DNA from: Candidatus Marinacidobacterium sp.
GTDB taxonomy: Bacteria > Acidobacteriota > Vicinamibacteria > Marinacidobacterales > Marinacidobacteraceae
DNA: 64,000 nucleotides
Reading direction: 5' to 3'
NCBI GenBank assembly: GCA_965223075.1
Contig: OZ244986.1
Coordinates: 3,204,462 to 3,268,461 of the forward strand
The notes under the pieces were generated by a model. The model did not search any database. It saw nothing but the letters and a program-made list of their open reading frames with translations, and had not been told where the DNA came from. Within the stretch, counting starts at the first letter, position 1; each line of letters starts with the position of its first letter. The position numbers and the translations under genes were made by a program. Positions 31,309-52,449 of this stretch are shown one piece after another.

Positions 31309-33729
31309 TTGCCTCGTCATCCCCTGACATCCCGCAAAGCGTTCCGGATGATCGCCCTGGTGGGGTTTGCCGTGCTGGTCGGTGTTTCCCTGGCCTCTGG
31401 CAGTCAGCCCCCCATCCACGACGGACCGGCCCCTCCTCTCGCGGATAGCCGGGCGCAGGACGATTCCGACGACCTCGGACTCGCGGACCGCGGGGCCGGC
31501 AGGCTCGCCGACAGCCAGCAAGACCTCAGTTCGGACATAAGGGGCCGGATCCTCGGGCCGCCCGCCCCCGCGGCCGGGGAGGCCGTCCGCCGCGACGCCG
31601 ACGGCCGGGTAACGCTCCGCGCCTTCCGGCTCGCCGAACCGATCACCGTGGACGGGGTTCTCGACGACCCGGTCTACGAACAGGTGCCGGCGGCCGAGGG
31701 GTTTGTCCAGCAGGAGCCCAGCGAAGGCGCGCCCGCCTCGGAGGGCACCCGTGTCTGGGTGCTCTACGACGCGGACAGCCTCTACATCAGCGCGGAACTC
31801 GAAGAAGAGCACCCGGAGCGCCTGATGGCCAACGAGATGCGCCGCGACCAGCGGAACATCGACTGGGGCGACAGCTTCTCGGTCATCATCGACACCTTCT
31901 ACGACCGCCGGAACGGCTTCTTGTTCCACACGAACGCGCTGGGCGCCCTGTTCGACGCGCAGGTGACCGACGAACGGAACACGAACAGCGACTGGAACAC
32001 GGTCTGGTGGGTGAAGAGCCATCTGCTCGAAGACAGGTACACCGTGGAGATCCGGATCCCGTTCCGCTCGCTCCGTTACACCGCCGGCGGACCCCAGATC
32101 TGGGGGATCAACTTCCGCCGCCGCATCAAACACCGAAACGAACAGGTGTTCTTCACCCCGACGCCCCAGTCGTACAGCCGCGACGGATTGACCCGTCTCT
32201 CCAACGCGGCGACGCTCGTCGGCGTCGAGGCGCCCCCCGGCTCGAGACGAATGGAACTGAAGCCCTACGCGATCGGTTCCCAGAGCCACGTTCCCCTGCG
32301 GGACATCAACAACGAGTGGGCCGGCGACGTGGGCGCGGACTTCAAGTTCGGCGTCACCGACGGGCTCACCGCCGACGTGACCTGGAACACCGATTTCGCG
32401 CAGGTGGAAGACGACGAGACCCAGGTCAACCTGAGCCGCTTCAGCCTGTTCTACCCGGAAAAGCGCGAGTTTTTCCTCGAGGGACAGGGGGTCTTCGACT
32501 TCGGCGGCCGGCAAACCCGCGTCCGCCCGTTCGGAGGCGACTCTTCCGACGCTCCGATCCCGTTCTTCAGCCGGTCCATCGGCATTGCGGGCGGCAGCGT
32601 GGTACCGATCCTGGGTGGTGCGCGGCTCCACGGCCGCGCCGGCGCCTACCAGATGGGCCTCATGAACATCCAGACCGGCGCGGTGGGGGGGCTCGACGTG
32701 GAGAGCACGAACTTCAGCGCTTTCCGGATCAAGCGCGACATCTTTTCCCGGTCGAATATCGGAGTCATCGTCACCCATCGGAATGTGAGCGCCGACGGCT
32801 CCGGGGCGAATTCGCTCTACGGAATGGACGGGAACTTCGCCCCGACCGACAACGTCCGCATCAACACCTTCTACATGGCAACGAGCGAGCCCGGAGTCGA
32901 GACCGGGCACCAGGCCGCCACTTACATGGGCCAGTTCCGCTACGAGACCGACCTGATCGATGTCACCGCCGAGCGGCTCTATCTCGGTGAGGACTTCAAC
33001 CCCGGGATGGGTTTCGTCCGCCGCCGGGATTTCACCAAGAACGGCGGAAGCCTCCAGTTCTCGCCGCGCCCCCGCGGCATCAAAGCGATCCGCCAGTTCG
33101 AGTTCAAGGTGGACGCGAACAACTACGACCGTCCCGACGGCGAGATGGAGACCCGGGAATACAAGTTCGAGGCGCGGGCCATCCTGGAGAGCAGCGACCG
33201 CATCTTCCTCGATCACACCGTGACCGAGGAGCGTCTGCTCGAGGGGTTCGACCTTTCAGGCGAGGTCGGGGTGCCCGCCGGCAACTACCGTTTTGCCCGC
33301 ACCGGGGTGCGGTTGCGGATGGGATCCCACCGCCGGCTCTCGGGCTTCCTGCGCTACGAGTTCGGCGATTTCTTCGAGGGCACCCGGCAGGAAGTGAGTT
33401 ACATGGGACGCGCCGAGGTCAGCCAGCGCTTTTCCCTCGAGCCGAACATCAGCTTCAACTGGATCGAGGTGCCGGAGGGCGAGGTACGGGCGCAGGTCAG
33501 CCGGCTCCGCGCCACCTACACCGTCTCGCCCCGCAGCTTCCTGGGCGCGCTCGTCCAGTACAACTCGGCGGCGCAACTGATGTCCGCGAACATTCGCTTC
33601 CGCTGGGAGTACTCGCCGGGCAGCGACCTGTTCGTGGTCTTCAGCACGAACCGCGACGGGGACGACGGGCTCTCCGGGCTCAGCGACCGGACACTCGTCA
33701 TCAAGTTCACCCGCCTGTTCCGGTTCTAG
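31309..33729 (+). CDS. CBM9-like/DUF5916 family outer-membrane beta-barrel protein, paralogue 1 (subfamily A)
   Basis: Signal peptide; ~800 aa; C-terminal ...VKFTRLFRF with terminal Phe (OMP beta-signal); TTG start as in the paralogues; ECF-type promoter GGAAC-N17-CGTT about 35 nt upstream. Confidence 0.8.
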   Translation: MPRHPLTSRKAFRMIALVGFAVLVGVSLASGSQPPIHDGPAPPLADSRAQDDSDDLGLADRGAGRLADSQQDLSSDIRGRILGPPAPAAGEAVRRDADGRVTLRAFRLAEPITVDGVLDDPVYEQVPAAEGFVQQEPSEGAPASEGTRVWVLYDADSLYISAELEEEHPERLMANEMRRDQRNIDWGDSFSVIIDTFYDRRNGFLFHTNALGALFDAQVTDERNTNSDWNTVWWVKSHLLEDRYTVEIRIPFRSLRYTAGGPQIWGINFRRRIKHRNEQVFFTPTPQSYSRDGLTRLSNAATLVGVEAPPGSRRMELKPYAIGSQSHVPLRDINNEWAGDVGADFKFGVTDGLTADVTWNTDFAQVEDDETQVNLSRFSLFYPEKREFFLEGQGVFDFGGRQTRVRPFGGDSSDAPIPFFSRSIGIAGGSVVPILGGARLHGRAGAYQMGLMNIQTGAVGGLDVESTNFSAFRIKRDIFSRSNIGVIVTHRNVSADGSGANSLYGMDGNFAPTDNVRINTFYMATSEPGVETGHQAATYMGQFRYETDLIDVTAERLYLGEDFNPGMGFVRRRDFTKNGGSLQFSPRPRGIKAIRQFEFKVDANNYDRPDGEMETREYKFEARAILESSDRIFLDHTVTEERLLEGFDLSGEVGVPAGNYRFARTGVRLRMGSHRRLSGFLRYEFGDFFEGTRQEVSYMGRAEVSQRFSLEPNISFNWIEVPEGEVRAQVSRLRATYTVSPRSFLGALVQYNSAAQLMSANIRFRWEYSPGSDLFVVFSTNRDGDDGLSGLSDRTLVIKFTRLFRF

Positions 33730-33933: not shown

Positions 33934-36363
33934 GTGATTCGCTTTTCCCCGAGTTCCCGCAGGGCGTGGCGAGGTTCCGCCGCAGGGTTTTTCTTCCTGC
34001 TGGCCGGCGGTTCGCTCGTTGCCGCGGCCGCTGAACGCATACCGGCGGAACCCGCCCCGCCCTCCTCGGACCGGCGGGTTCAGGACACTCAGGACGATCA
34101 GGATGACCTCGCCCTAACGTCCCGCGGCGCGGGCCGGCTAGCCGTTGACCAGCAAGCGCCGGTCAACTCGGGGATGGCCGGCCGCATCCTCGGGCCGCCT
34201 GCGCCCGCGGCTGGGGAAGCCGTCAGCCGCGACGCCGAAGGCGGGGTGACCCTCCGCGCCTTCCGGCTGGCCGAACCGCTCACTGTGGACGGCGTGCTCG
34301 ATGACCCGGTCTACGACCAGGTGCCGGCGGCGGAAGGATTCCTGCAGCAGGAGCCCGACGAGGGCGCCCCGGTGTCGGAGTCCACGCGCGTCTGGGTGCT
34401 CTACGACGCGGACAGCCTCTACGTCGCCGCCGAGCTGGAAGAGGACCACCCGGAGCGGCTGACGGCCGGCGAGATGCGCCGGGACCACCGGAACGTCGGC
34501 TGGAACGACAGCTTCTCGGTCATCCTCGACACCTTCTACGACCGCCGGAACGGCTTCTTGTTCCACACGAACTCCCTCGGCGCCCTGTTCGACGGCCAGG
34601 TGACCGACGAGCGGAACACGAACAGCGACTGGAACACCGTGTGGTGGGTGAAGACTCGTCAACTGGAGGATGGGTGGACGGTGGAGATCCGGATCCCGTT
34701 CCGCTCGCTCCGCTACGCGGCCGGCGGACCCCAGCTCTGGGGGATCAACTTCCGCCGCCTCATCAAGCACAAGAACGAACGGGTGTTCTTCAGCCCGACG
34801 CCCCAGTCTTACAGCCATAACGGGCTGCTGCGGCTCTCCAACGCCGCGACGCTCGTCGGTCTCGAGGCGCCCGCCGGATCGAGGCGGATGGAACTGAAGC
34901 CGTACGCGATCGGCTCGCAGAGCCACGTCCCCCTGAACGACATCCACAACGAGTGGTCGGGCGACGTCGGCGGCGACTTCAAGTTCGGCGTCACCGACGG
35001 GCTCACCGCGGACGTGACCTGGAACACCGACTTCGCGCAGGTCGAAGACGACGAGACCCAGGTCAACCTGAGCCGCTTCAGCCTGTTCTACCCGGAAAAG
35101 CGCGAGTTCTTCCTCGAGGGGCAGGGAGTTTTCGACTTCGGTGGCCGGCAGACCCGCGCCTTCGGAGGAGGCGGCTCCTCCGACGCTCCCATCCCGTTCT
35201 TCAGCCGGTCCATCGGCATTGCGGGACGCAGCGCGGTGCCGATCCTGGGTGGGGCGCGTCTCCACGGCCGCGCTGGCGCTTACACGATGGGGCTCATGAA
35301 CATCCAGACCGGCGAGGTGGCGGGCCTCGACGTGGACAGCACGAACTTCAGCGCCTTCCGGATGAAGCGCGACATCTTCGCGCGCTCCAACATCGGGGTC
35401 ATCGCCACCCACCGGAATCTGAGCGCCGACGGCTCCGGGGCGAATTCGCTCTACGGCGTGGACGGGAACTTCGCCCCGACCGACAACATCCGCATCAACA
35501 CGTTCTACATGGCGACGGCCGAGCCCGGAGTCGAGAGCGGGCACCAGGCCGCCACCTACATGGGCCAGTTCCGCTACAACACCGATCTGATCGATGTCAC
35601 CGCCGAACGCCTCTATCTCGGCGAGGACTTCAACCCGGGGATGGGCTTCGTCCGCCGCCGGGATTTCACCAAGAACGCCGGAAGCCTCCAGTTCTCGCCG
35701 CGCCCCCGCGGCATCGAGGCGATCCGCCAGTTCGAGTTCAAGGTGCAAGCGAAGAACTACGACCGTCCCGACGGCGAGATGGAGACCCGCGAATACCAGT
35801 TCGACGCGCGAGCCATCTTCGAGAGCAGCGATCGCCTCATGTTCGATCACAGCGTGACCGAAGAGCGTCTCCTCGAGGGTTTCAACCTCTCGAGTGATGT
35901 CGGGATCCCCGCCGGCAACTATCGGTTCTCCCGGACCGGGGTAAGGGTGCGGATGGGATCCCATCGCTCCTTCTCGGGCATGTTCCGCTACGAGTTCGGT
36001 GACTTCTTCGGGGGCACCCGGCAACAGGTCAGTTATTGGGGACGCGCCGAGATGAACCAGCGCTTTTCCATCGAGCCGAACATCAGCCTCAACTGGATCG
36101 AGGTGCCCGAGGGTGAGGTGCGGGCGCAGGTCAGCCGGCTGCGCGCCACCTACACCGTCTCCCCGCGGAGCTTTCTTGGCGCGCTCGTCCAGTACAACTC
36201 GGCGGCGCAACTGTTTTCCGCGAACGTGCGTTTCCGCTGGGAGTACTCACCGGGCAGCGATCTCTTCGTCGTCTTCAGCACGAACCGCGACGGGGATGAC
36301 GGGCTCTCCGGGCTCAGCGACCGGGCGCTCGTCGTCAAGTTCACGCGCCTGTTCCGGTTCTAA
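33934..36363 (+). CDS. DUF5916 family OM protein, paralogue 2 (subfamily A)
   Basis: Near-identical to paralogue 1 over long stretches (RILGPPAPAAGEAV..RDA.G.VTLRAFRLAEP); GTG start; GGAAC-N17-CGTT upstream. Confidence 0.8.
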   Translation: MIRFSPSSRRAWRGSAAGFFFLLAGGSLVAAAAERIPAEPAPPSSDRRVQDTQDDQDDLALTSRGAGRLAVDQQAPVNSGMAGRILGPPAPAAGEAVSRDAEGGVTLRAFRLAEPLTVDGVLDDPVYDQVPAAEGFLQQEPDEGAPVSESTRVWVLYDADSLYVAAELEEDHPERLTAGEMRRDHRNVGWNDSFSVILDTFYDRRNGFLFHTNSLGALFDGQVTDERNTNSDWNTVWWVKTRQLEDGWTVEIRIPFRSLRYAAGGPQLWGINFRRLIKHKNERVFFSPTPQSYSHNGLLRLSNAATLVGLEAPAGSRRMELKPYAIGSQSHVPLNDIHNEWSGDVGGDFKFGVTDGLTADVTWNTDFAQVEDDETQVNLSRFSLFYPEKREFFLEGQGVFDFGGRQTRAFGGGGSSDAPIPFFSRSIGIAGRSAVPILGGARLHGRAGAYTMGLMNIQTGEVAGLDVDSTNFSAFRMKRDIFARSNIGVIATHRNLSADGSGANSLYGVDGNFAPTDNIRINTFYMATAEPGVESGHQAATYMGQFRYNTDLIDVTAERLYLGEDFNPGMGFVRRRDFTKNAGSLQFSPRPRGIEAIRQFEFKVQAKNYDRPDGEMETREYQFDARAIFESSDRLMFDHSVTEERLLEGFNLSSDVGIPAGNYRFSRTGVRVRMGSHRSFSGMFRYEFGDFFGGTRQQVSYWGRAEMNQRFSIEPNISLNWIEVPEGEVRAQVSRLRATYTVSPRSFLGALVQYNSAAQLFSANVRFRWEYSPGSDLFVVFSTNRDGDDGLSGLSDRALVVKFTRLFRF

Positions 36364-36569: not shown

Positions 36570-38981
36570 GTGTATCGCCTTTTCCCGACTTCCCGCAGCG
36601 TTTGGGGAGTTTCCGCCCTCGGGTTTTCCATCCTGCTGGCCGGCGCCGCTCCCGGCGCCACGGGGCCGCCCGGCCTCGACGGACCCGGCCCCCCGCCGCC
36701 CGACCGGCGAGTCCAGGACGATCAGGACGGCTTCGCGATACCGGGCCGGGGCGCGGGCCGGCTTGCCGCCGGCCAGCAGGCGTCCGTCAGCTCGGCGATG
36801 GCCAGCCGCATCCTCGGCCCGCCGGCCCCGGAGGCCGGGGAAGCTGTCAGCCGCGACGCTGACGGCCGGGTAACGCTTCGGGCCTTCCGGCTCTCGGAAC
36901 CCATCACCGTGGACGGAGTGCTCGACGACCCGGTGTACGAACAGGTGCCGGCGGCGGACGGGTTCCTCCAGCAGGAGCCCGACGAGGGCGCTCCGGCCTC
37001 GGAGTCAACCCGCGTCTGGGTGTTTTACGACGCGGACAGCCTCTACATCGCCGCCGACCTGGAAGAAGAGCACCCGGAGCGGCTGATGGCCAGCGAGATG
37101 CGCCGCGACCACCGGAGCATCGGCTGGAACGACAGCTTCCAGTTCGTCCTCGACACCTTCTACGACCGCCGGAACGGCTTCTTGTTCCACACGAATGCGC
37201 TGGGCGCCCTCTTCGACGCCCAGGTGACCGACGAGCGCAACACGAACAGCGACTGGAACACCGTCTGGTGGGTGAAGACCCGAATTGTGGAAGACGGGTG
37301 GACGATGGAGATCCGGATTCCGTTCCGCTCCCTGCGTTACGCGGCCGGCGGAGCTCAGCTCTGGGGAATCAACTTCCAGCGCAACATCAAACACAAGAAC
37401 GAGAAAGTGTTCTTCACCGCCACGCCCCAGGCGTACAACCGGGAGGCGCTCATCCGCTTGTCCAACGCGGCGACGCTCGTGGGTCTCGAAGCGCCACCCG
37501 GGTCGCGGCGGATGGAGTTGAAGCCGTATGCGATCGGCTCGCAGTACCACGCTCCTCTACGCGACACCCTGAACGAATGGTCCGGCGACGTCGGGGCTGA
37601 CTTCAAGTTCGGCGTCACCGACGGGCTCACCGCCGACGTCACCTGGAACACCGACTTCGCACAGGTGGAAGACGACGAGACCCAGATCAACCTGAGCCGC
37701 TTCAGCCTCTTCTTCCCGGAAAAGCGCGAGTTCTTCCTCGAAGGGCAGGGGGTCTTCGACTTCGGCGGCCGCCAGACCCACCTGTTTCGGGGTCCGACCG
37801 ATGTTCCCATCCCGTTCTTCAGCCGGTCCATCGGCATCTCCGGCGGCAGCGCGGTACCGATCCTCGGGGGCGCCCGCCTCCACGGGCGAAGCGGCGCTTA
37901 CACGATGGGGCTCATGAACATCCAGACCGGGGACGTGCCGGGCATCGACGCGCAGAGCACGAATTTCAGCGCCTTCCGGCTGAAGCGCGACATCTTCTCG
38001 CGGTCCAACATCGGGGTCATCGCCACCCACCGGAACCTGAACGCCGACGGCTCCGGGGCCAACTCCCTCTACGGCGTGGACGGGAACTTCAACCCGACGG
38101 AACACCTCCGCATCAACACCTTCTACATGGCTACGACCGAGCCTGGGGTTGACACCGGACACCAGGCCGCCAGCTACATGGGCCAGTTCCGCTACGACAC
38201 CGACCTGTTCGACGTCTCCGCCGAGCGCCTCTATCTGGGCGAGGATTTCAACCCGGGGATGGGATTCGTCCGCCGCCGGGATTTCACGAAGGACGGTGCC
38301 TCCGTCCAGTTCTCACCACGCCCTCGCGGCATCAAGGCGATCCGGCAGTTCGAGTTCAAGGCGCAGGTGGACAACTACGATCGTCTCGACGGAGAGATGG
38401 AGACTCGCGAGTACCGGTTCGAAGGCAGGGCCATCCTCGAGAGCAGCGACCGTCTGGTCATGGACTACTCCAGGACCGAGGAGCGCCTGCTCGACGGGTT
38501 CAACCTCTCCAGCGAGGTCACGGTTCCGGCTGGCGATTACCGCTTCTCCCGTACCGGCGTCCGTTTCTGGCTGGGAACCCACCGCGCGGTTTCGGGATAT
38601 TTGCGCTACGAGTTCGGCGACTTCTTCGGAGGCAGCCGGCGGGAAGTGAGTTACTGGGGCCGCGCCGAGGTCAACCAGCGTTTCTCCATGGAGCCGAACA
38701 TCAGCCTCAACTGGATCACGGTTCCCCAGGGCGAGGTGCGGGCGCAGGTCAGCCGCCTGCGGGCGACCTACACCGTCTCCCCGCGCAGCTTCGTGGGCGC
38801 CCTCGTCCAGTACAACTCGGCGGCGCAGCTCGTTTCCGCGAACGTGCGGTTCCGCTGGGAATATTCGCCGGGCAGCGACGTGTTCGTCGTCTTCAGCACG
38901 AACCGTGACGGGGACGACGGGCTCAGCGGGCTGACCGATCGGGCGCTGGTCGTCAAGTTCACCCGCCTGTTCCGATTCTGA
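36570..38981 (+). CDS. DUF5916 family OM protein, paralogue 3 (subfamily A)
   Basis: GTG start; same domain order and C-terminal FRF; upstream CGTT -10 element conserved but -35 degenerate. Confidence 0.8.
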   Translation: MYRLFPTSRSVWGVSALGFSILLAGAAPGATGPPGLDGPGPPPPDRRVQDDQDGFAIPGRGAGRLAAGQQASVSSAMASRILGPPAPEAGEAVSRDADGRVTLRAFRLSEPITVDGVLDDPVYEQVPAADGFLQQEPDEGAPASESTRVWVFYDADSLYIAADLEEEHPERLMASEMRRDHRSIGWNDSFQFVLDTFYDRRNGFLFHTNALGALFDAQVTDERNTNSDWNTVWWVKTRIVEDGWTMEIRIPFRSLRYAAGGAQLWGINFQRNIKHKNEKVFFTATPQAYNREALIRLSNAATLVGLEAPPGSRRMELKPYAIGSQYHAPLRDTLNEWSGDVGADFKFGVTDGLTADVTWNTDFAQVEDDETQINLSRFSLFFPEKREFFLEGQGVFDFGGRQTHLFRGPTDVPIPFFSRSIGISGGSAVPILGGARLHGRSGAYTMGLMNIQTGDVPGIDAQSTNFSAFRLKRDIFSRSNIGVIATHRNLNADGSGANSLYGVDGNFNPTEHLRINTFYMATTEPGVDTGHQAASYMGQFRYDTDLFDVSAERLYLGEDFNPGMGFVRRRDFTKDGASVQFSPRPRGIKAIRQFEFKAQVDNYDRLDGEMETREYRFEGRAILESSDRLVMDYSRTEERLLDGFNLSSEVTVPAGDYRFSRTGVRFWLGTHRAVSGYLRYEFGDFFGGSRREVSYWGRAEVNQRFSMEPNISLNWITVPQGEVRAQVSRLRATYTVSPRSFVGALVQYNSAAQLVSANVRFRWEYSPGSDVFVVFSTNRDGDDGLSGLTDRALVVKFTRLFRF

Positions 38982-45202: not shown

Positions 45203-45214
45203 CGGCGCCGCGAA

Positions 45215-45389: not shown

Positions 45390-47717
45390 TTGTCCCGTTC
45401 CGCGTTCCCGTTCGCACTCCTGGCGCTGATCGTTCCGGCCGCCGGGTGGGGTCAGCCCGGAGAGCTCGGCGAACGGCAGGACGGCCAGGGGGCGGCGCCC
45501 GAACCGGCATTCGTGGTGCGCGGCCCCGCGCCGCCCGAACTGCCCGAGATGGTGCGCCGGGACGATCTCGGCGGGGCCACGATGCGCGCCACCCGCATCG
45601 ACGAGCCGTTCGAACTCGACGGCCGTCTCGACGACGCGATCTACGACCGCGTGCCCGGGGTGGGCGGGTTCATCCAGGCGCTGCCGCTCGAGGGCGAACC
45701 CGCCACCGAGCCGACTGAGGTCTGGGTCTTCTACGACGACGACACCCTCTACGTCGCCGGCCGCTGCTGGGACAGCCAGCCCGACCGGATGCTGGCTACG
45801 GAAATGCGGCGCGACCACTTCGGCATCCACAACAACGAGAACCTGGCCGTCATCCTGGACACCTTCTACGACCGCCGAAACGCCTTCTTCTTCTACCTGA
45901 ACCCGATCGGCGGGTTCTTCGATGGCCTCATCGTGGACGAGCGGAACGTGAACCGCGACTGGACCGCGGTCTGGGACTCGCGGGCGGCCCGTTTCGAAAA
46001 CGGCTGGACCATGGAGATGGCGATCCCGTTCAAGACACTGCGCTACGCCGGCGGTGGTCCCCAGGTCTGGGGGATCAACTTCCGCCGCATCGTGCGCTGG
46101 AAGAACGAATATTCCTATCTGACCCGGCTTCCCGCCGCCCTGGGGCCGCGCGCGATCACCAAGATCAGCTCGGCGGGCACCCTGGTGGGCCTCGAGGCGC
46201 CGGCCAGCTCCCGCACCGTCGAGGTGAAGCCGTACCTCATCGGCGACGCCGCCGGGATCCGCTCGGCCGCCGGCACGCTGGAGCGGGACTACGGCAATGA
46301 TTTCGGGGTGGACGCCAAGGTCGGGATCACCAACGCACTCACCGCCGACCTCACCTGGAACACCGACTTCGCCCAGGTGGAGGCGGACGCCCAGCAGATC
46401 AACCTCACCCGGTTCAGCCTCTTCTTTCCCGAAAAGCGGGAGTTCTTTCTGGAAGGGCAGGGGATCTTCAGCTTCGGCACGGCGTCGCGGGCGCCTCCGT
46501 CCGGGTCCACGCGCAGCTTTGGCCAGCCGAGCAGCACTCCGGTGCTCTTCTTCAGCCGCCAGATCGGGATCGCCGGCGGTCAGGTTGTGCCGATCCTCGG
46601 CGGGGGACGGGTGACCGGGAAGCTCGGTGACTTTGGCGTCGGGGCGCTCGCGATCCGCAGCGGCGCGAACAGCGCCGCGGGCGCTCCGGAGACCGACTTC
46701 TCGGCCCTGCGGCTGAAGCGCGACATTCTGAACCGCAGCACGGTGGGCGCCATGGGCACCTATCGCTCCCACACCACTAGCGGGCTGGGGCGGAACTTTG
46801 CCTGGGGGATCGACGCCCGGTTCGGGTTTTTCGAGCATCTCGACATCCAGACCTACGCTGCCTGGACGCAGAACGAACTCGAAGACGAGACCGGAATGAG
46901 CTATCTGGGCCAGCTCGATTACAACGGCGACCGCTACGGGCTCAAGACCGAACGGCTGGTCGTCGGGGACGGATTCGATCCGGGAATCGGGTTCCTGCGC
47001 CGCCGGGACTTTCAGCGGAACTACGCCGAGGCGCGCTTCAGCCCCCGGCCGCACTCGATCTCCTGGCTCCGCAAGATCGGCTGGACCGGCAGTCTCGACT
47101 ACACCACCGATAACGAATCGGTCCTGGAAACCCGGATCTTCTCGCTGCGCACCGAGGTCGAACTCGAGAACGGGGACCGGCTGAACCTGAACGCCGCCCG
47201 GAACCACGAAGTACTGAGCGAAGCGTTCACGCTGGATGCGGACGAAGGAATCGGCGTGGGGGTGGGTCCGTACGACTTCGACCACGTCCGAGTCAGCTAC
47301 CAGGGCGGGCCGCAGCGTCCGGTCTCGGGTAACTTCGCCTACCAGCAGGGAGGATTCTTCTCCGGGACCCGTCGCGAGTTCGCTTGGCGCGGACGCGTGG
47401 AGATGACGACGCGTTTCTCCCTCGAGCCCATCCTCTCGCTGAACCGGATCGCGCTTCCGACGGGCGACTACGACACCAGCCTGCTCGCGTCCCGGATCAC
47501 CTACACGCTCTCGCCCCGCAGCTTCCTTGCAGCCTTTCTCCAGTACAACACCACCGCAAACAGCCTTTCGACGAACGTCCGTTTCCGCTGGGAGTACGAA
47601 CCGGGAAGCGATTTCTACATGGTCTACAACTCGCTGCGCGACACGTTGATGCCCGGCTATCCCGAGTTGAACACCCAATCCTTCATCGTCAAGTTCACTC
47701 GCCTCTTCCGCTTCTAA
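45390..47717 (+). CDS. DUF5916 family OM protein, paralogue 6 (subfamily B)
   Basis: TTG start; signal MSRSAFPFALLALIVPAAGWGQP; ends ...VKFTRLFRF; conserved upstream GGCGTAGAGTTCCGG motif. Confidence 0.8.
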   Translation: MSRSAFPFALLALIVPAAGWGQPGELGERQDGQGAAPEPAFVVRGPAPPELPEMVRRDDLGGATMRATRIDEPFELDGRLDDAIYDRVPGVGGFIQALPLEGEPATEPTEVWVFYDDDTLYVAGRCWDSQPDRMLATEMRRDHFGIHNNENLAVILDTFYDRRNAFFFYLNPIGGFFDGLIVDERNVNRDWTAVWDSRAARFENGWTMEMAIPFKTLRYAGGGPQVWGINFRRIVRWKNEYSYLTRLPAALGPRAITKISSAGTLVGLEAPASSRTVEVKPYLIGDAAGIRSAAGTLERDYGNDFGVDAKVGITNALTADLTWNTDFAQVEADAQQINLTRFSLFFPEKREFFLEGQGIFSFGTASRAPPSGSTRSFGQPSSTPVLFFSRQIGIAGGQVVPILGGGRVTGKLGDFGVGALAIRSGANSAAGAPETDFSALRLKRDILNRSTVGAMGTYRSHTTSGLGRNFAWGIDARFGFFEHLDIQTYAAWTQNELEDETGMSYLGQLDYNGDRYGLKTERLVVGDGFDPGIGFLRRRDFQRNYAEARFSPRPHSISWLRKIGWTGSLDYTTDNESVLETRIFSLRTEVELENGDRLNLNAARNHEVLSEAFTLDADEGIGVGVGPYDFDHVRVSYQGGPQRPVSGNFAYQQGGFFSGTRREFAWRGRVEMTTRFSLEPILSLNRIALPTGDYDTSLLASRITYTLSPRSFLAAFLQYNTTANSLSTNVRFRWEYEPGSDFYMVYNSLRDTLMPGYPELNTQSFIVKFTRLFRF

Positions 47718-47842: not shown

Positions 47843-47871
47843 TTGTCGCCTGACAGGCGACGGCCTACAAT
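47843..47871 (+). promoter_or_regulatory. Putative higBA promoter/operator: TTGTCG-N17-TACAAT with embedded perfect palindrome GTCGCCTG-A-CAGGCGAC
   Basis: Sigma70-like spacing; 8-bp inverted repeat overlapping the spacer, typical of autoregulated TA operators; immediately upstream of the higB start. Confidence 0.4.
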
Positions 47872-47877
47872 CAGCCG

Positions 47878-48156
47878 TTGATCGCATCGTTCCGCCACCG
47901 CGGCCTGCAGGCGCTCTACGAGGGCAGGACCGCGCGGCGGGTCGGACCGGAGCATGTGCGCAAACTACGGGACATCCTGGCGGCGCTCGATCGTAGTCGC
48001 GGGCTGGAGAGCATGAATCTGCCCGGGTTCCGGTTGCACGCGCTCAAGGGACCCCTGAAAGGACACCACGCGGTGTCGGTGTCCGGCAACTGGCGGGTGA
48101 CCTTCCGATTCGAGGACGGCGCGGCGGTCGATGTGGACTACGTGGACTATCACTGA
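47878..48156 (+). CDS. higB: HigB toxin (RelE/ParE superfamily, 'killer protein')
   Basis: MIASFRHRGLQALYEG...LHALKGPLKGHHAVSVSGNWRVTFRFEDGAAVDVDYVDYH aligns with the canonical HigB (MIKSFKHKGLE...LKGDRAGQHSIRIN.QWRICF...VDYH) pattern; TTG start. Confidence 0.8.
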   Translation: MIASFRHRGLQALYEGRTARRVGPEHVRKLRDILAALDRSRGLESMNLPGFRLHALKGPLKGHHAVSVSGNWRVTFRFEDGAAVDVDYVDYH

Positions 48157-48169
48157 GGAGAAGACGATC

Positions 48170-48457
48170 ATGGCCATGCACAATCCGCCGCATCCGGGCG
48201 GCATCGTGAAGAGGCAGTGTCTCGAACCCTTGGGTCTGACCGTGACCCGCGCCGCCGAGGGTCTGGGCGTCACCCGGCAGGCGCTCTCGGAGTTGCTGAA
48301 CGGGCGAACGGGAATCTCGGTGGAGATGGCGATCCGCCTTTCGAAAGCCTTTGGTTCGACACCCGAGACCTGGCTGGGGATGCAGATGGCCTACGATCTG
48401 TGGCAGGCCCGGGGCCGCGCCGGAGAGATCGCGGTCGAGCGCTTCGTGGCAGCCTGA
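48170..48457 (+). CDS. higA: HigA antitoxin (XRE-family HTH)
   Basis: MAMHNPPHPGGIVKRQCLEPLGLTVTRAAEGLGVTRQALSELLNGR; GAGGAG SD upstream of ATG 48170; follows higB directly. Confidence 0.8.
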   Translation: MAMHNPPHPGGIVKRQCLEPLGLTVTRAAEGLGVTRQALSELLNGRTGISVEMAIRLSKAFGSTPETWLGMQMAYDLWQARGRAGEIAVERFVAA

Positions 48458-48578
48458 TCCGACCGGCACGCGGCCCGCAGGACCGCTGCGGTGACATCGT
48501 AAGTCATTGAATGTTTTGATTGTTGTACGCGATCTACAACAGTGGACAGCACATGCCGAAGCGCGCGGAACGGCACAC

Positions 48579-48830
48579 CTAACGTCGCCAGCGCTTTAGG
48601 CGTTCCGGCTTCACCTCAACGTAGTCAGCCAGATTCTGACCGTCGTTGATCCCCCCGCTCCAGTTCTCGTTCCCCGCCTCCTTTGCGATCTGGGGTGGGG
48701 TGGTCCCGCTTTTTCGGATGTCCTCGACAAAAATGATCCCGAACAGGTGAGTCATAGCCGAAACGCGGTCGTCAGGCTCCCCCGCTCGCCTCATCTCCAG
48801 CAGTTTGTCAACAAGATGACGCTTCTCCAT
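48579..48830 (-). CDS. Small hypothetical protein (83 aa), possibly DNA-binding
   Basis: Perfect AGGAGG SD 6 nt upstream of ATG (plus-strand 48828-48830); locally lower GC; the track embeds it as the C-terminus of an implausible Gly/Arg-rich 313-aa ORF. Confidence 0.45.
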   Translation of the reverse strand: MEKRHLVDKLLEMRRAGEPDDRVSAMTHLFGIIFVEDIRKSGTTPPQIAKEAGNENWSGGINDGQNLADYVEVKPERLKRWRR

Positions 48831-49012
48831 GGCTGCTCCTCCTTTGCCTTGCTTCGCATGTTCCTCACTGTCACGATCCATCCTTGGCTTCACCAAGGCG
48901 ACGCGCAGAATATTCAGGTTCGACTCAAGCCATGCGGCTAGCGTTGTTCGCGAGGATTTGACATCGGCGGCCAGTGGCCGGCGAAACACACTTCGCAATC
49001 TCCTGCGTGCGC

Positions 49013-49783
49013 TCATTCCACCGCTCGGCGCGCCGGGTCCCACGCCGCGAATTCCACGGGTGCCGCCGCCTGTAGCCTTTCCAGCGCCCGCTTCCGCGCC
49101 TCCCAGAGCGTGTCCCGCTTCGCACGCGCCTCCCCAACCGTGTCCCGCTCCGCCCCCGTCGTCCTCAACGCTGCCCCAATCGCCACCCGCACCATTTCCC
49201 CGGCGGCCTCCAGCGCCGCGTCTAGCCCCTCCAGAGCTGCGAATTCCGCTGGAGCCGACGCGCGAAGTGCCTCCACAGTAGCGCGGAGTGCTGCTGCGCG
49301 CATCTCTGCATCGGCCGCTTGGAACGCCGCAAACTCGACGGGAGCCGACTCCTGGAGCCACTCCTCGGCCGCCTCCAACGCCGCATCCGTGATCTTGATT
49401 CGTTCGGCCGCTTTCTCCCACGCCCGGCGTCCCACCGCGTCCTCGGGGTCCGCCCATCCCGCGTCCGCCACCCCCAACTCCACGTTCGCCGAAACGGCCT
49501 CCCCTTCCGCCGCTCGCCACGCCGCGAACTCTGCCGGTACCGCGGCGCGAAGCCGGTCCCTCGCCGCCTTATGCGCCGCGATGGCCGCCTCCCACGCCTC
49601 GAATTCCTCGGGGGCCGCCGTCCGAATTCGATCTTCTGCAGTCGGTGCTGCCTCGAATCCCCTCGGGGCCTTCGTCGGATGCCCATCTTCCGCGGCTGGC
49701 GGGACACAAGAAACCAGCGAACCCGCCAGCAGGAGAACGAGCACCGCACCCAGAACTCCGGCCGGAAGTATGGGGCCGCTCAT
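49013..49783 (-). CDS. Repeat-containing lipoprotein (5 copies of an ~40-aa AP.EFAAW... repeat)
   Basis: Signal peptide plus lipobox LVSC; repeats APEEFEAWEAA / VPAEFAAWRAA / APVEFAAFQAA / APAEFAALEGL / APVEFAAWDPA; start taken at the internal Met (MSGPILPAG...). Confidence 0.5.
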   Translation of the reverse strand: MSGPILPAGVLGAVLVLLLAGSLVSCVPPAAEDGHPTKAPRGFEAAPTAEDRIRTAAPEEFEAWEAAIAAHKAARDRLRAAVPAEFAAWRAAEGEAVSANVELGVADAGWADPEDAVGRRAWEKAAERIKITDAALEAAEEWLQESAPVEFAAFQAADAEMRAAALRATVEALRASAPAEFAALEGLDAALEAAGEMVRVAIGAALRTTGAERDTVGEARAKRDTLWEARKRALERLQAAAPVEFAAWDPARRAVE

Positions 49784-50121
49784 TTGCCTTTCTGCGGGAG
49801 CAAGCGAAGGCAGGCCAAGAGTGAAGACAGTCCGTTTTCCGGTCATGGACAACTTCCCTCGGTGCGGGATAAATCGGTGACACGGAGCCTGCCACCAGCC
49901 GCCAACAACTCCAGAAGCCGGAGACGCGTGGCCGGAGATGGACTCTCTCGCTTCGGTGAGCGTATCAAGGTCCGCCCGCGCGAACGGCGTGCATGGTCTT
50001 CACGGAATATGGCGTGATCGACGGTGCGGTGCCCCAAAACCCCGTCCAGCAGCGAGCCCGAGGGCTCCCGGACCGGCCGCGGCTCTCGGCGTAGAGTTCC
50101 GCCGCCGCCCGAGTTCCGCTC

Positions 50122-52449
50122 TTGTCCCGCTCCGCGTATCGCTTCGTTCTCGTCGGCATTGCCCTGATCGTTCCGGGCTTGCTGTGGGGACAGTCCGCAG
50201 AACTCGCCGACCGGCAGGACGGCCAGGGCTCGGCGCCGGAGCCGGCATTCGTGGTGCGGGGTCCCGCGCCTCCCGAGCTGCCCGAGATGGTGCGCCGCGA
50301 TGATCTCGGCGGGGCCACCATGCGCGCCACCCGGCTCACCGAACCGATCGAACTCGACGGCCGACTCGACGACGGAATCTACGACCGCGTTCCGGGAGTC
50401 GGCGGCTTCATCCAGGCGCTCCCGCTGGAAGGAGAACCGGCCACCGAAGACACCGAGGTCTGGGTCTTCTTCGACGACGACGCGGTGTACATCGCCGGGA
50501 GGTCCTGGGACTCGCAGCCGGACCGGATCGTGGCCACCGAAATGCGGCGGGACCACTTCGGCATCTTCAACAACGCGAACCTCGCGGTCATCCTGGACAC
50601 CTTCTACGACCGGCGGAACGCCTTCTTCTTCTACCTGAACCCGATCGGCGGTTTCTTCGACGGGCTCATCGTGGACGAGCGGAGCGTGAACCGCGACTGG
50701 ACGGCGGTCTGGGATTCGCGGGCGGCGCGGTTCGAGAACGGTTGGACCATGGAGATGCGCATCCCGTTCAAGACCCTTCGCTACGACCGGGGAGGCCCGC
50801 AGGTCTGGGGCATCAACTTCCGACGGGTGGTTCGCTGGAAGAACGAGATGTCGTACCTGACGCAGGTGCCGGCGGCGCTCGGGCCGCGGGCGATCACCAA
50901 GATCAGCTCGGCGGGCACCCTGGTGGGACTCGAAGCGCCGGCGAGTTCCCGGACCGTCGAGGTGAAGCCGTACCTGATCGGGGACGCCGCCGGCGCCCGG
51001 ATCGAGAGCGGGTCGCTCGAGCGCGATTTCGGCGGGGACTTCGGGGTGGACGCCAAGGTAGGGATCACCAGCGGGCTCACCGCCGACCTCACCTACAACA
51101 CCGACTTCGCCCAGGTCGAGGCCGACGCGCAACAGGTCAACCTCACCAGGTTCAGCCTCTTCTTCCCGGAAAAGCGCGAGTTCTTCCTGGAGGGGCAGGG
51201 GATCTTCGACTTCGGCAGTTCGAGCCGCGGTGCGCCTCCGGGGTCCACGCGCAGCTTCGGCCCACCGAGCAGCACGCCGGTGCTCTTCTTCAGCCGCCGC
51301 GTTGGCATCGAAAACGGCAGCGCGGTCCCCATTCGGGGCGGCGCCCGGGTCACGGGGAGGCTCGGAGACTACAACGTGGGCGCGATCGCCATGCGCAGCG
51401 GGGAGAGCACGGCCGCCGGCTCCCCGGAGACGGACTTCTCGGTATTCCGGCTGAAGCGCGACATCCTGAACCGCAGCACCGTCGGGGTGATGGGGACGTA
51501 CCGCTCCCACACCGCAAACGGCCTGGGGCGGAACTTCGCCTACGGGATGGACGCCCGGTTCGGCTTCTTCGAAAACCTGGACATCCGCAGCTACGCGGCC
51601 TGGACCCAGAACGAACTCGAGGACGAGACCGGGCTGAGCTATCTCGGCCAGCTCGACTACAACGGCGACCGCTACGGGCTGCAGGCGGAACGGCTGGTGG
51701 TCGGGGACGAATTCGACCCGGGGATCGGGTTCCTGCACCGCCTGGACTTCCAGCGGAACTACGCGGAGGCCCGGTTCAGTCCCCGGCCGCATTCGATCTC
51801 CTGGCTTCGCAAGGTGGGCTGGACCGGCAGTGTGGACTACACGACGGACAACGAGGGGGAGCTCGAGACCCGCATCTTCGGTTTCCGCTACGACATGGAG
51901 TTCGAGAACGGGGATCAGTTCAACCTGAACGCGACCCGGAACCGCGAGGTGCTGGGCGAATCGTTTTCCCTGAGCGACGACCTCGGCGTGGAGCCCGGCA
52001 GCTACGACTTCGACTACGTGCGGTTCAGCTACCAGGCGGGTCCCCAGCGTCCGGTGTCGGGCGGCTTCGCCTACCAGCAGGGCGGATTCTTTTCCGGGAC
52101 TCGCCGGGAGGCTGCCTGGCGCGGCCGGGTCGAAGTCATGCCCCGCCTGACGTTCGAGCCCTTGGTTTCCCTGAACTGGATCTCACTTCCCGAGGGCGAC
52201 TACGACACCAACCTGCTCGCGTCCCGGATCAACTACACGCTCTCGCCCCGCAGCTTCCTCGCGGCGTTCCTCCAGTACAACACCGCCGCGAACAGCCTTT
52301 CGACGAACGTCCGCTTCCGCTGGGAGTACGAGCCGGGCAGCGACCTCTACATCGTCTACAACTCGCTCCGCGACACCCTGGTCCCCGACTATCCCGAACT
52401 GAACGCCCAGTCGTTCATCGTCAAGTTCACCCGGCTCTTCCGGTTCTGA
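50122..52449 (+). CDS. DUF5916 family OM protein, paralogue 7 (subfamily B)
   Basis: TTG start; MSRSAYRFVLVGIALIVPGLLWGQS; very close to paralogue 6; ends ...VKFTRLFRF. Confidence 0.8.
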   Translation: MSRSAYRFVLVGIALIVPGLLWGQSAELADRQDGQGSAPEPAFVVRGPAPPELPEMVRRDDLGGATMRATRLTEPIELDGRLDDGIYDRVPGVGGFIQALPLEGEPATEDTEVWVFFDDDAVYIAGRSWDSQPDRIVATEMRRDHFGIFNNANLAVILDTFYDRRNAFFFYLNPIGGFFDGLIVDERSVNRDWTAVWDSRAARFENGWTMEMRIPFKTLRYDRGGPQVWGINFRRVVRWKNEMSYLTQVPAALGPRAITKISSAGTLVGLEAPASSRTVEVKPYLIGDAAGARIESGSLERDFGGDFGVDAKVGITSGLTADLTYNTDFAQVEADAQQVNLTRFSLFFPEKREFFLEGQGIFDFGSSSRGAPPGSTRSFGPPSSTPVLFFSRRVGIENGSAVPIRGGARVTGRLGDYNVGAIAMRSGESTAAGSPETDFSVFRLKRDILNRSTVGVMGTYRSHTANGLGRNFAYGMDARFGFFENLDIRSYAAWTQNELEDETGLSYLGQLDYNGDRYGLQAERLVVGDEFDPGIGFLHRLDFQRNYAEARFSPRPHSISWLRKVGWTGSVDYTTDNEGELETRIFGFRYDMEFENGDQFNLNATRNREVLGESFSLSDDLGVEPGSYDFDYVRFSYQAGPQRPVSGGFAYQQGGFFSGTRREAAWRGRVEVMPRLTFEPLVSLNWISLPEGDYDTNLLASRINYTLSPRSFLAAFLQYNTAANSLSTNVRFRWEYEPGSDLYIVYNSLRDTLVPDYPELNAQSFIVKFTRLFRF

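What the first reader, a model, noticed from the sequence alone, without database searches (positions are those of the whole stretch)
31309..52449. Tandem array of seven CBM9-like/DUF5916 outer-membrane beta-barrel paralogues in two subfamilies
Seven 740-810-aa proteins are encoded head-to-tail. Each has a signal peptide and a C-terminal ...VKFTRLFRF beta-signal. Paralogues 1-3 are near-identical in long blocks (subfamily A). Paralogues 5-7 form subfamily B, and paralogue 4 is a divergent B member. Such a concentrated, recently duplicated array of large surface proteins suggests diversifying selection (phage or predator receptor variation, substrate specialisation) and ongoing gene conversion. 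The function of DUF5916 proteins is unknown.
Basis: partly seen in the sequence, partly recalled or inferred. Interest (0 to 1): 0.65.

Follow-up and report, generated by a model that had tools for sequence, protein, structure and literature searches.

The report
Old seven-gene outer-membrane protein array
Seven related genes for large outer-membrane barrel proteins of unknown function sit in a row in a sponge- or coral-associated acidobacterium, but the row is old, is inherited gene-for-gene by related species and is conserved by selection, so it is not a fast-evolving surface-variation locus.

Summary
There are seven same-strand paralogues: A = P1-P3 at 79-83% amino-acid identity, B = P5-P7 at 81-87%, P4 a divergent B at 74-76%, and A versus B about 45%. 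All seven end in KFTRLFRF. The array is interrupted twice by inserted defence or toxin-antitoxin genes. P4 has no canonical start codon in front of its signal peptide.

AlphaFold models of P6 and P1 (pTM 0.75 and 0.79) show a CBM9/DOMON-like beta-sandwich followed by about 24 barrel strands. The Pfam DUF5916 match is real but covers only profile positions 4-86 of 572.

At least 10 species-level relatives carry the array, with 1:1 orthologue clades (P4, P5 and P7 40/40 bootstraps; P6 36/40). Paralogue dS is 0.40-0.63 and dN/dS 0.18-0.29. The longest identical run is 65 nt. A permutation test found no conversion tract, loops are short and conserved, and there are no phase-variation repeats. Copy number rises from 1-2 to 3 to 6-8 copies across the clade, beside a conserved tRNA-Val.

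Extras: a conserved CUG overlapping the P3 stop probably starts P4, and a ~6-kb tract of about 99% identity over P4-P5 points to recombination between lineages.

Verdict: an ordinary lineage-specific expansion of a very large uncharacterised outer-membrane family.

The parts
30554..30626 (+). tRNA-Val(TAC). It marks the conserved chromosomal position of the locus.
   Evidence: ARAGORN and Rfam, 76 bits. The same tRNA lies immediately upstream of the first DUF5916 copy in the distant relatives L027-L030.
30630..31308 (.). Repeat-rich spacer with REP-like elements and palindromes, between the tRNA and P1.
   Evidence: Two 84-nt tandem units, a 22-nt perfect palindrome at 30797-30840 and a 39-nt inverted repeat at 30623-30719. 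The REP core recurs at 22839 and 59988.
31309..33729 (+). P1, subfamily A. 806 aa from the TTG at 31309; an alternative ATG at 31348 gives 793 aa.
   Evidence: AlphaFold model: pLDDT 78.8, pTM 0.79, signal helix 9-29, sandwich 93-308, 24 strands from 315 to 801. P0121, 100% identical, was called from the ATG.
33934..36363 (+). P2, subfamily A, 809 aa, GTG start.
   Evidence: The orthologue L004_1 is 94% identical, and this clade has 40/40 bootstraps.
36570..38981 (+). P3, subfamily A, 803 aa, GTG start. Its TTC-TGA end overlaps the P4 CTG.
   Evidence: The orthologue clade holds 13 genomes, with 23/40 bootstraps.
38978..41287 (+). P4, a divergent B member. It probably starts at the CTG at 38978, which overlaps the P3 stop (C-TGA). 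The first canonical start (ATG at 39059) would give a protein with no signal peptide.
   Evidence: the open, in-frame signal-peptide-like stretch has no ATG/GTG/TTG in 9 genomes; changes in that stretch are mainly synonymous; omega is 0.13-0.20 against orthologues. The clade has 40/40 bootstraps.
41746..42825 (+). Inserted YhcG/DUF1016 PD-(D/E)xK nuclease gene (PADLOC candidate PDC-S02). Not part of the family.
   Evidence: Pfam YhcG_C 207 bits and DUF1016_N 144 bits. PADLOC PDC-S02 488 bits. 99.9% nt identity to L003, L007 and L053, and absent between P4 and P5 in L004.
42869..45202 (+). P5, subfamily B. The homology-supported start is the TTG at 42869; the longest ORF runs from 42776.
   Evidence: The orthologue clade holds 17 sequences and has 40/40 bootstraps.
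45390..47717 (+). P6, subfamily B, 775 aa, TTG start.
   Evidence: AlphaFold model: pLDDT 77.9, pTM 0.75, sandwich 55-270, 24 strands from 277 to 770. The clade has 36/40 bootstraps.
47854..49852 (.). Inserted block: HigB (47854-48156, +), HigA (48131-48457, +), an HTH_73 gene (48579-48860, -) and a 279-aa repeat ORF (49013-49852, -).
   Evidence: Pfam; internal repeats. The block is present in L003 but absent in L004 and L007.
50122..52449 (+). P7, subfamily B, 775 aa, TTG start. It is the last array member.
   Evidence: The clade has 40/40 bootstraps.
52533..56318 (-). Dsr1 (SIR2_2) defence gene, inserted directly after the array. Specific to this genome.
   Evidence: Pfam SIR2_2. PADLOC Dsr1 1576 bits. 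GC is 0.58-0.60. In L002, L003, L004 and L007, P7 is followed directly by the equivalent of window 56416 onward.

Best explanation
The locus is an old, vertically inherited tandem family of seven outer-membrane proteins of the uncharacterised DUF5916 family. It lies in a marine Vicinamibacteria acidobacterium (the 'Ca. Marinacidobacterium' group).

How each protein is made and built:
- Each product is exported by a Sec-type signal peptide (inferred from sequence).
- Each is inserted into the outer membrane through a C-terminal ...KFTRLFRF beta-signal (inferred from sequence).
- The mature protein is a CBM9/DOMON-like beta-sandwich followed by a barrel of about 24 strands (shown by modelling).
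- Extracellular loops are short (from the models).
- An invariant 78-residue acidic and aromatic segment lies between strands 3 and 4: NTDFAQVExD...NLTRFxLFFPEKRxFFLEG.
- Because the sandwich precedes strand 1 and all long loops fall on the opposite parity, the sandwich most likely sits at the periplasmic mouth or inside the lumen (inferred).

How the array arose:
- It grew from an ancestral tandem pair, one A and one B, beside tRNA-Val, to 3 A + 4 B before the present species diverged.
- Each copy has since been kept by purifying selection, which implies seven non-redundant jobs.

Most likely function (inferred, not shown): gated outer-membrane channels or transporters with different substrate preferences.

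Expression:
- P4 is probably expressed by reinitiation at a CUG that overlaps the P3 stop codon.
- The other copies use weak TTG or GTG starts (P1 may instead start at an ATG, 31348).

The intergenic spacers have become landing sites for defence and toxin-antitoxin cargo.

The confidence of 0.7 applies to the structural and evolutionary account. The channel or transporter function alone is about 0.35-0.4.
For: Anatomy.

Family: Pfam DUF5916 scores 46-63 bits in all seven. A profile search finds 31,873 cluster representatives at E<=1e-3 and 19,274 at E<=1e-10, mostly covering the full length.

Fold:
- The two AlphaFold models have pTM 0.75 and 0.79, each with a sandwich plus 24 strands.
- Foldseek: 1i82 E 1.4e-7, TM 0.73.

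Age and stability:
- The same array occurs in L001, L002, L004, L006, L008, L010, L011, L012, L017 and L021.
- NJ tree orthologue clades are supported: P4, P5 and P7 40/40; P6 36/40.
- Orthologue omega is 0.12-0.35.
- Paralogue dS is 0.40-0.63 and omega is 0.18-0.29.
- tRNA-Val lies upstream in L027-L030.
- RND-efflux upstream and HpcH/CitE downstream synteny is kept in a relative at 54% identity that carries two copies.
- Copy number is 1-2 in L024-L030, 3 in L018 and L023, and 6-8 in close relatives.

P4 start.

Insertions.
Against: - No experiment, paper or genomic partner ties any DUF5916 protein to a function. Literature searches for DUF5916, PF19313 and 'carbohydrate binding family 9' returned nothing.
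- Model coordinates could not be inspected, so the position of the sandwich (plug, periplasmic or surface) is only a topological inference.
- The most conserved segment has pLDDT below 50 in both models.
- The Pfam profile covers only 15% of its length. CBM9_1 is at or below its threshold in A and gives no hit in P5-P7.
- Within subfamily A the orthology is weaker: P3 core 23/40 and A-first 24/40 bootstraps. P1 and P2 group together only weakly (19/40), so some turnover or old conversion there is possible.
- The conserved CTG is partly forced by P3's own TTC-TGA ending, so its conservation alone does not prove that it is used.
Confidence: 0.7

Rival explanations
1. One reading: the array is recently duplicated and rapidly diversifying. 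Surface-exposed variation is driven by phages or predators and shuffled by ongoing gene conversion between copies.
For: - Seven paralogues of a surface-membrane protein lie in tandem.
- One 40-codon window in the sandwich domain of subfamily A has pN/pS 2.8 for P1 versus P3.
- P1 and P2 are 89-94% identical in their 3' halves, against 80-88% to other A copies.
- The order of P5 and P6 differs between sub-lineages.
- Defence genes are inserted in and around the array.
Against: - There are 1:1 orthologues in at least 10 species-level genomes.
- Paralogue dS is 0.40-0.63 and omega is 0.18-0.29.
- The longest identical run is 65 nt.
- The permutation test's best tract is 36 nt at p = 0.0075, uncorrected for six pairs.
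- Loops are short and conserved, and the longest loop has mean conservation 0.91.
- There are no phase-variation repeats.
Confidence: 0.04
2. The proteins are lectin-like adhesins. They display the CBM9-like domain on the cell surface to bind host (sponge or coral) or particle glycans, with the barrel serving only as an anchor.
For: - The N-terminal domain has the CBM9 fold, which binds sugars in xylanases.
- The close relatives are MAGs whose record titles point to sponge and coral hosts (the host assignment is from memory of those bin names).
- The family is expanded in this clade.
Against: - The domain is N-terminal to strand 1. All long loops are on the opposite parity from it, which places it on the periplasmic or lumenal side by the usual rule that both barrel termini are periplasmic (inference).
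- A 24-strand barrel is far larger than an anchor needs.
- The domain is unusually conserved (mean conservation 0.88) and rich in invariant charged residues.
Confidence: 0.1
3. The barrel is not an uptake channel. It has another activity: an outer-membrane enzyme, a polymer-export pore, or a DOMON-type cofactor or electron-transfer module. The invariant acidic segment between strands 3 and 4 would be a catalytic or metal site.
For: - The invariant D/E/N/R-rich motif (N324-G358 in P6) is the most conserved part of the protein across 52 diverse sequences.
Against: - There are no adjacent polysaccharide-synthesis, cytochrome or enzyme partner genes, either in the window or in relatives.
- There is no sequence match to any solved structure.
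Confidence: 0.15
4. P4 is a decaying pseudogene that lost its start codon, so the array has only six functional members.
For: - No ATG, GTG or TTG precedes the signal-peptide-like stretch in the window or in 8 relatives.
- The CTG is partly explained by P3's own TTC-TGA ending.
Against: - P4 is intact over about 740 codons in at least 13 genomes, with omega 0.13-0.20 at dS up to 0.62.
- The upstream stretch stays open and in frame, and keeps a signal-peptide character despite sequence divergence.
- In the 17 codons from the CTG through the hydrophobic core (codons 0-16), 3 of 4 variable codons across 7 species change synonymously only.
- Indels in that stretch are multiples of three.
Confidence: 0.08

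Closest known systems
Pfam DUF5916 (PF19313) proteins. NCBI annotates them as 'DUF5916 domain-containing protein' or 'carbohydrate binding family 9 domain-containing protein'.
   Same: All seven pass the Pfam threshold. Close homologues carry PF19313, with or without PF06452, and bear these NCBI names. They share the length, the architecture and the C-terminal ending.
   Different: Only profile positions 4-86 of 572 align, so the barrel here is divergent from the Pfam seed. Nothing is known about the function of any family member. The 6-8-copy tandem expansion is specific to this clade.
CBM9 carbohydrate-binding modules (T. maritima Xyn10A CBM9-2, PDB 1i82; BACUNI_03838, PDB 4jpq) and the wider DOMON-like superfamily (ethylbenzene dehydrogenase gamma, 2ivf_C).
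   Different: Sequence identity is 9-16%. The CBM9_1 HMM scores at or below its threshold. The domain is not appended to a glycoside hydrolase; it is fused to a membrane barrel. The ligand is unknown, and conservation of the sugar-stacking residues was not tested.
Large plugged outer-membrane barrels: TonB-dependent transporters (22 strands), usher PapC/FimD (24 strands) and LptD (26 strands, with an N-terminal beta-jellyroll).
Tandem outer-membrane paralogue families that vary by gene conversion or phase variation (for example Neisseria opa and Helicobacter hop/bab; recalled from general knowledge).
   Same: There are several paralogous outer-membrane protein genes in one genome.
   Different: Here the copies have 1:1 orthologues across species, omega of about 0.2, no conversion tracts, no hypervariable loops and no simple-sequence repeats.

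Membership tests
Pfam DUF5916 (PF19313) | HMM score above the gathering threshold (22.6 bits). | tested here: met
   46.3-63.1 bits in all seven. PF19313 is precomputed on all close homologues.
Pfam DUF5916 (PF19313) | Alignment over most of the 572-position domain model. | tested here: not met
   The only matched stretch is profile positions 4-86 (or 22-86), which corresponds to strands 1-3 and the invariant motif. The rest of the barrel is too divergent for the Pfam model, although a profile built here recovers full-length relatives.
CBM9 (Pfam CBM9_1, PF06452 / CAZy CBM9) | HMM score above the gathering threshold (23.4 bits). | tested here: inconclusive
   P1 24.4 and P2 23.9 (just above); P3 22.6 and P4 17.8 (below); P5-P7 no hit at E<=0.01.
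CBM9 (Pfam CBM9_1, PF06452 / CAZy CBM9) | CBM9 beta-sandwich fold. | tested here: met
CBM9 (Pfam CBM9_1, PF06452 / CAZy CBM9) | Carbohydrate binding through the conserved aromatic clamp, and attachment to a carbohydrate-active enzyme. | not tested
   Residue-level superposition was not available. No catalytic CAZyme module is present in the proteins, which argues against a classical CBM role.
Gram-negative outer-membrane beta-barrel proteins (BAM substrates) | N-terminal Sec signal peptide. | tested here: met
   Six of the seven have a signal peptide behind a canonical TTG/GTG/ATG start, with a basic n-region and a hydrophobic core (predicted helix 9-29 in P1). P4 has one only if translation starts at the CTG at 38978. 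No dedicated signal-peptide predictor was available.
Gram-negative outer-membrane beta-barrel proteins (BAM substrates) | C-terminal beta-signal ending in an aromatic residue, and an even number of antiparallel transmembrane strands. | tested here: met
TonB-dependent transporters | Plug domain (PF07715) plus a 22-strand TonB_dep_Rec barrel and a TonB box. | tested here: not met
   No Plug or TonB_dep_Rec hit at E<=0.01. There are 24 strands rather than 22. The N-terminal domain is a CBM9-like sandwich, not a plug fold.
Contingency or diversifying outer-membrane paralogue arrays | Recent duplication or concerted evolution, conversion tracts, hypervariable exposed loops, or phase-variable repeats. 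| tested here: not met
   as detailed in the report.

The most novel reading that the evidence does not exclude
DUF5916 proteins are a distinct, very widespread class of outer-membrane translocon, with more than 19,000 50%-identity clusters at E<=1e-10. In this reading a 24-strand barrel is gated by a DOMON/CBM9-like domain and by the invariant segment between strands 3 and 4. The anciently paired A-type and B-type genes work together, and the clade's expansion to seven tuned copies underlies nutrient exchange in sponge or coral symbiosis. The natural CUGA stop-start overlap that drives P4 would be a conserved case of CUG reinitiation in bacteria.
Probability: 0.15. Interest if true: 0.6.

Novelty: new member of a known kind. 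Interest (0 to 1): 0.3.

Why it matters
The locus does not reveal a new mechanism of surface variation. Its value is as a clean natural experiment for a very large outer-membrane family with no characterised member. The profile search found 31,873 cluster representatives at E<=1e-3, and no paper in the held library mentions the family.

- The seven long-retained, selectively maintained paralogues give a ready-made comparison set for working out specificity determinants. The same holds for the older A+B pair.
- The stepwise copy-number series (1-2, then 3, then 6-8) across related marine Vicinamibacteria could be correlated with ecology.
- The P3/P4 junction is a testable example of conserved non-canonical (CUG) initiation coupled to an upstream stop.
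- The spacers show that a paralogue array can act as a landing pad for defence genes and toxin-antitoxin cargo.

Tried and rejected
- Exact-sequence look-ups for the source contig failed for P6, P0121 and P0019. Only the contig length, 4,195,189 bp, was recovered.
- The AFDB50 fold library was unavailable.
- A profile search against PDB sequences gave no hit at E<=1.
- NCBIfam has no model for these proteins.
- Literature searches for DUF5916, PF19313, 'carbohydrate binding family 9', Marinacidobacterium, and CBM9 + outer membrane + beta-barrel gave nothing relevant.
- The promoter and terminator scan was uninformative: counts were near shuffle expectation.
- Tandem Repeats Finder found no repeats in or before the paralogues.
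- A mobile genomic island at tRNA-Val was considered and rejected. The paralogues have host-like GC3 (0.85-0.90). The tRNA-to-DUF5916 arrangement and the flanking synteny are conserved in distant relatives. Only the YhcG, HigBA and Dsr1 genes are insertions.
- An assembly artefact was considered and rejected, because the same array appears in many independent assemblies, including complete chromosomes.
- A P3-P4 frameshift fusion was considered and rejected. There is no slippery heptamer, and the signal peptide would end up internal.
- The plug question could not be settled because model coordinates are not exposed by the tools.
Full report
**1. What is in the sequence**

Window 31309-52449 holds seven long + strand ORFs:

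| Copy | Coordinates |
|---|---|
| P1 | 31309-33729 |
| P2 | 33934-36363 |
| P3 | 36570-38981 |
| P4 | 39059-41287 |
| P5 | 42776-45202 |
| P6 | 45390-47717 |
| P7 | 50122-52449 |

- All seven have the codon-position GC pattern of real genes in this 67% GC genome, with GC3 of 0.85-0.90.
- The products align end to end, and all finish with (V/I)KFTRLFRF.
- Amino-acid identity is 79-83% among P1-P3 (subfamily A) and 81-87% among P5-P7 (subfamily B). P4 is 74-76% identical to B. A versus B is 44-47%.
- No other copy or fragment of the family lies in the window.

The array is interrupted twice:
- A YhcG/DUF1016 PD-(D/E)xK nuclease gene (41746-42825) lies between P4 and P5.
- A 2.4-kb block lies between P6 and P7. 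It holds HigB/HigA, an HTH_73 gene and a 279-aa repeat ORF.

A tRNA-Val(TAC) at 30554-30626 and a repeat-rich 680-bp spacer precede P1.

**2. Start codons and signal peptides**

By homology, B members start at a Leu-codon start followed by S/T-R:
- TTG at 42869 for P5
- TTG at 45390 for P6
- TTG at 50122 for P7

P2 and P3 start at GTG. P1 starts at the TTG at 31309 or the ATG at 31348. All six give plausible Sec signal peptides.

P4 is the exception.
- Its first ATG/GTG/TTG (39059) lies after an in-frame stretch, LTRSSAPPYGWCFGALAACLIWVPAAA, which is clearly homologous to the other signal peptides.
- The codon at the homologous start position is the CTG at 38978-38980. It overlaps the TGA of P3 (TTC-TGA read as C-TGA).
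- The same situation holds in eight other species-level genomes: L002, L004, L006, L008, L010, L011, L012 and L031. Each has an open frame, a signal-peptide character, no canonical start, and a CTG on the P3 stop.
- Across seven of these genomes, the 17 codons from the CTG through the hydrophobic core (codons 0-16) contain four variable codons. Three of them change synonymously only and one is a Leu/Val change.
- P4 as a whole is under purifying selection: omega is 0.13-0.20 at dS 0.19-0.62 against orthologues.

I infer that P4 is translated from the CUG, probably by termination-reinitiation after P3. One caveat applies: the CTG is partly imposed by P3's own Phe-stop ending.

**3. Family and fold**

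- Pfam DUF5916 hits all seven at 46-63 bits (cutoff 22.6). The match covers only profile positions 4-86 of 572.
- CBM9_1 is marginal in A (22.6-24.4 bits against a cutoff of 23.4), sub-threshold in P4, and absent in P5-P7.
- NCBIfam has no model for these proteins.

AlphaFold2 models with 52-56-sequence alignments gave the following:

| Model | pLDDT | pTM | Linker and sandwich | Barrel |
|---|---|---|---|---|
| P6 | 77.9 | 0.75 | disordered linker, then beta-sandwich 55-270 | 24 strands, 277-770 |
| P1 | 78.8 | 0.79 | disordered linker, then beta-sandwich 93-308 | 24 strands, 315-801 |

- Foldseek agrees.

The most conserved part of the protein is NTDFAQVExD..NLTRFxLFFPEKRxFFLEG. It lies in the 78-residue connection between strands 3 and 4, and it is modelled with low confidence in both models.

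All long connections fall on the loop parity opposite the N-terminal domain, and the other parity has 2-9-residue turns. By the usual topology rule, this places the sandwich at the periplasmic side or in the lumen. This is an inference, because coordinates could not be examined.

**4. Is the array recent, diversifying or converting? No.**

A scan of one genome per GTDB species returned 64 loci. The close ones (72-90% identity) are Vicinamibacteria / 'Ca. Marinacidobacterium' MAGs.

Copy number and arrangement in relatives:

| Loci | Copies | Arrangement |
|---|---|---|
| L001 | 8 | A-A-A-P3-P4-P6-P5-P7; the first A copy is frameshifted |
| L002, L006, L017 | 7 | A-A-P3-P4-P6-P5-P7 |
| L004 | 6 or more | P2-P3-P4-P5-P6-P7 |
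| L011, L012, L021 | 6 | |
| L013 | 4 | |
| L018, L023 | 3 | |
| L024-L029 | 2 | one A plus one B |
| L030 | 1 | one B |

Evidence for age and stability:
- An NJ tree of 124 sequences puts each window paralogue in its own orthologue clade, with one member per genome.
- Bootstrap support is 40/40 for P4, P5 and P7, 36/40 for P6, 23/40 for the P3 core, and 40/40 for all A and for all B.
- Orthologues are closer than paralogues. P4 is 90-98% identical to its orthologues, P5 91-96% and P7 90-92%, against at most 86.5% for any paralogue pair.
- Within the window, paralogue dS is 0.40-0.63 and omega is 0.18-0.29.
- Orthologue omega is 0.12-0.35.
- Windowed pN/pS is below 1 everywhere except one 40-codon window in the sandwich of subfamily A, where P1 versus P3 gives 2.8.
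- The longest identical nucleotide run between any two copies is 65 nt.
- In a Sawyer-type permutation test, the best tract is 36 nt at p = 0.0075, uncorrected for six pairs.
- Variable sites among 60 B sequences are not concentrated in long exposed loops. The longest loop has mean conservation 0.91, and the sandwich and strands 0.88.
- No simple-sequence repeats occur in or before the genes.

The only hints of turnover are these:
- Support for the P1/P2 placement is weak (19/40), and P1-P2 identity is somewhat raised (89-94%) in the 3' half.
- The P5/P6 order is swapped between sub-lineages.

**5. Locus history and surroundings**

- tRNA-Val(TAC) lies directly upstream of the first copy in L027-L030 as well.
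- A relative at 54% identity (L066) keeps the same synteny: RND efflux genes, then two DUF5916 genes, then small ORFs, then an HpcH/CitE-like gene. Its downstream copy is B-like: 54-55% identity to B against 47% to A.
- The locus is therefore a native chromosomal site. An old tandem pair there expanded to 3 A + 4 B before the 6-8-copy species diverged.

In L002, L003, L004 and L007, P7 is followed directly by the equivalent of window 56416 onward. The Dsr1 (SIR2) gene at 52533-56318 is therefore a genome-specific insertion. Its PADLOC score is 1576 bits and its GC is 0.58-0.60.

The YhcG gene is 99.9% identical to copies in L003, L007 and L053, and it is absent from L004. The HigBA block is shared only with L003.

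Against L004, nucleotide identity along the array is mosaic:

| Region | Identity to L004 |
|---|---|
| P2 | 87-97% |
| P3 | 81-92% |
| P4 | 99% |
| P5 | 96-99% |
| P6 | 86-93% |
| P7 | 84-94% |
| Flanks | 79-98% |

- The matching dS values are 0.02-0.07 for P4 and P5, against 0.25-0.51 for the rest.
- This indicates a recent homologous exchange of about 6 kb between lineages. It is allelic recombination, not conversion between paralogues.

**6. Mechanism**

- Shown by modelling or read from the sequence: exported proteins with a signal peptide and a beta-signal, built as a CBM9/DOMON-like sandwich plus a barrel of about 24 strands. They are old, orthologously conserved and under purifying selection.
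- Inferred: outer-membrane location, the sandwich on the periplasmic or lumenal side, and P4 initiation at CUG.
- Proposed (about 35-40% confidence): gated channels or transporters whose paralogues have diverged in substrate preference.
- Alternatives that cannot be excluded: an adhesin, an enzyme, an export pore or a cofactor module. No partner genes or literature exist for the family.

**7. Novelty and verdict**

The proteins are new members of a known but uncharacterised family. That family is very large: 31,873 representatives at E<=1e-3, 19,274 at E<=1e-10 and 7,243 at E<=1e-30. NCBI already annotates close homologues as DUF5916 or CBM9-domain proteins.

The seven-copy array is a lineage-specific but old expansion. 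What remains of interest is the conserved CUGA junction, the array's role as an insertion site for defence cargo, and the usefulness of seven conserved paralogues for working out the function of DUF5916.

Noticed in passing
window 8014-21032 (+): A complete Hma (helicase-methylase-ATPase) defence system. HmaA is at 8014-11532 (1462 bits; SNF2 + NOV_C). HmaB is at 13206-16169 (1402 bits; DUF1156 methylase). HmaC is at 17685-21032 (1010 bits) and carries an N-terminal HEPN_Swt1 domain. The region has a GC dip to 0.59-0.64.
   Followed up: partly
window 52533-56318 (-): A Dsr1 (SIR2_2) defence gene of 1261 aa, with GC 0.58-0.60. It is inserted directly after P7 and is absent from this site in L002, L003, L004 and L007.
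   Followed up: yes
window 41746-42825 (+): A YhcG/DUF1016 nuclease gene (PADLOC candidate PDC-S02) is inserted between P4 and P5. It is 99.9% identical in nucleotides to copies in L003, L007 and L053, while the flanks are about 88% identical, which suggests a recently mobile gene. In those relatives an extra ~4.4-4.8 kb lies upstream of it.
   Followed up: partly
window 47854-49852: A HigB/HigA toxin-antitoxin pair, an HTH_73 gene (-) and a 279-aa ORF (-). The ORF has a lipobox-like LVSC and four to six internal ~25-aa 'EFAAW' repeats. It matches no Pfam or NCBIfam model.
   Followed up: no
window 38975-39060, and the P3/P4 junctions of L002, L004, L006, L008, L010, L011, L012 and L031: A conserved CTGA stop-start overlap. 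The P4 signal-peptide ORF has no ATG, GTG or TTG in nine genomes. A synonymous TTC-to-TTT change in the last codon of P3 would create a canonical TTG start, yet it is never seen.
   Followed up: yes
window 39020-39035; L004 P4: The signal region of P4 contains a lipobox-like LAAC in the window and in L004 only. Other species have LAAG. P4 could therefore be lipidated in this sub-lineage.
   Followed up: no
window 38900-45000 versus L003, L004, L007 and L053: A tract of about 6 kb covering P4-P5 is 96-99% identical between species-level genomes whose other array genes and flanks are 79-94% identical. This points to recent recombination between lineages.
   Followed up: partly
L001, L002, L006, L009, L011, L015-L017 versus the window, L003, L004 and L007: The order of the P5 and P6 orthologues is swapped between sub-lineages (P4-P6-P5-P7 against P4-P5-P6-P7).
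   Followed up: partly
window 30899-31157, 22839-22864, 45200-45300, 59988-60013: REP-like intergenic repeats with the core GCACCGCGGCCCGCAGGGCCGCGAAC. There are 4 matches against 0 expected, plus a degenerate copy in the P5-P6 spacer. Similar elements appear in array spacers of L011, L012 and L017.
   Followed up: partly
window 30623-30840: A 39-nt inverted repeat (85% complementary) starts inside the 3' end of tRNA-Val. A perfect 22-nt palindrome lies at 30797-30840.
   Followed up: no
window alignment codons 200-240 of subfamily A (about 31800-31920 in P1): The single 40-codon window with pN/pS above 1 (2.8 for P1 versus P3; 0.92 for P1 versus P2). It lies in a loop of the CBM9-like domain (RRDQRNIDWGDSFSVII against RRDHRSIGWNDSFQFVL).
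   Followed up: no
window 22926-30451 (-) and 1815-6201 (-): Two adjacent AcrB-type RND pumps with a membrane-fusion protein lie directly upstream of the tRNA. This arrangement is also syntenic in the relative L066 at 54% identity. A MacAB-like ABC, FtsX and HlyD set lies further upstream.
   Followed up: no
L001 92-2544: The first A-type copy in L001 is split into two frames (92-1438 and 1414-2544). This is either a frameshifted pseudogene or a long-read assembly error. It would be an eighth copy.
   Followed up: no
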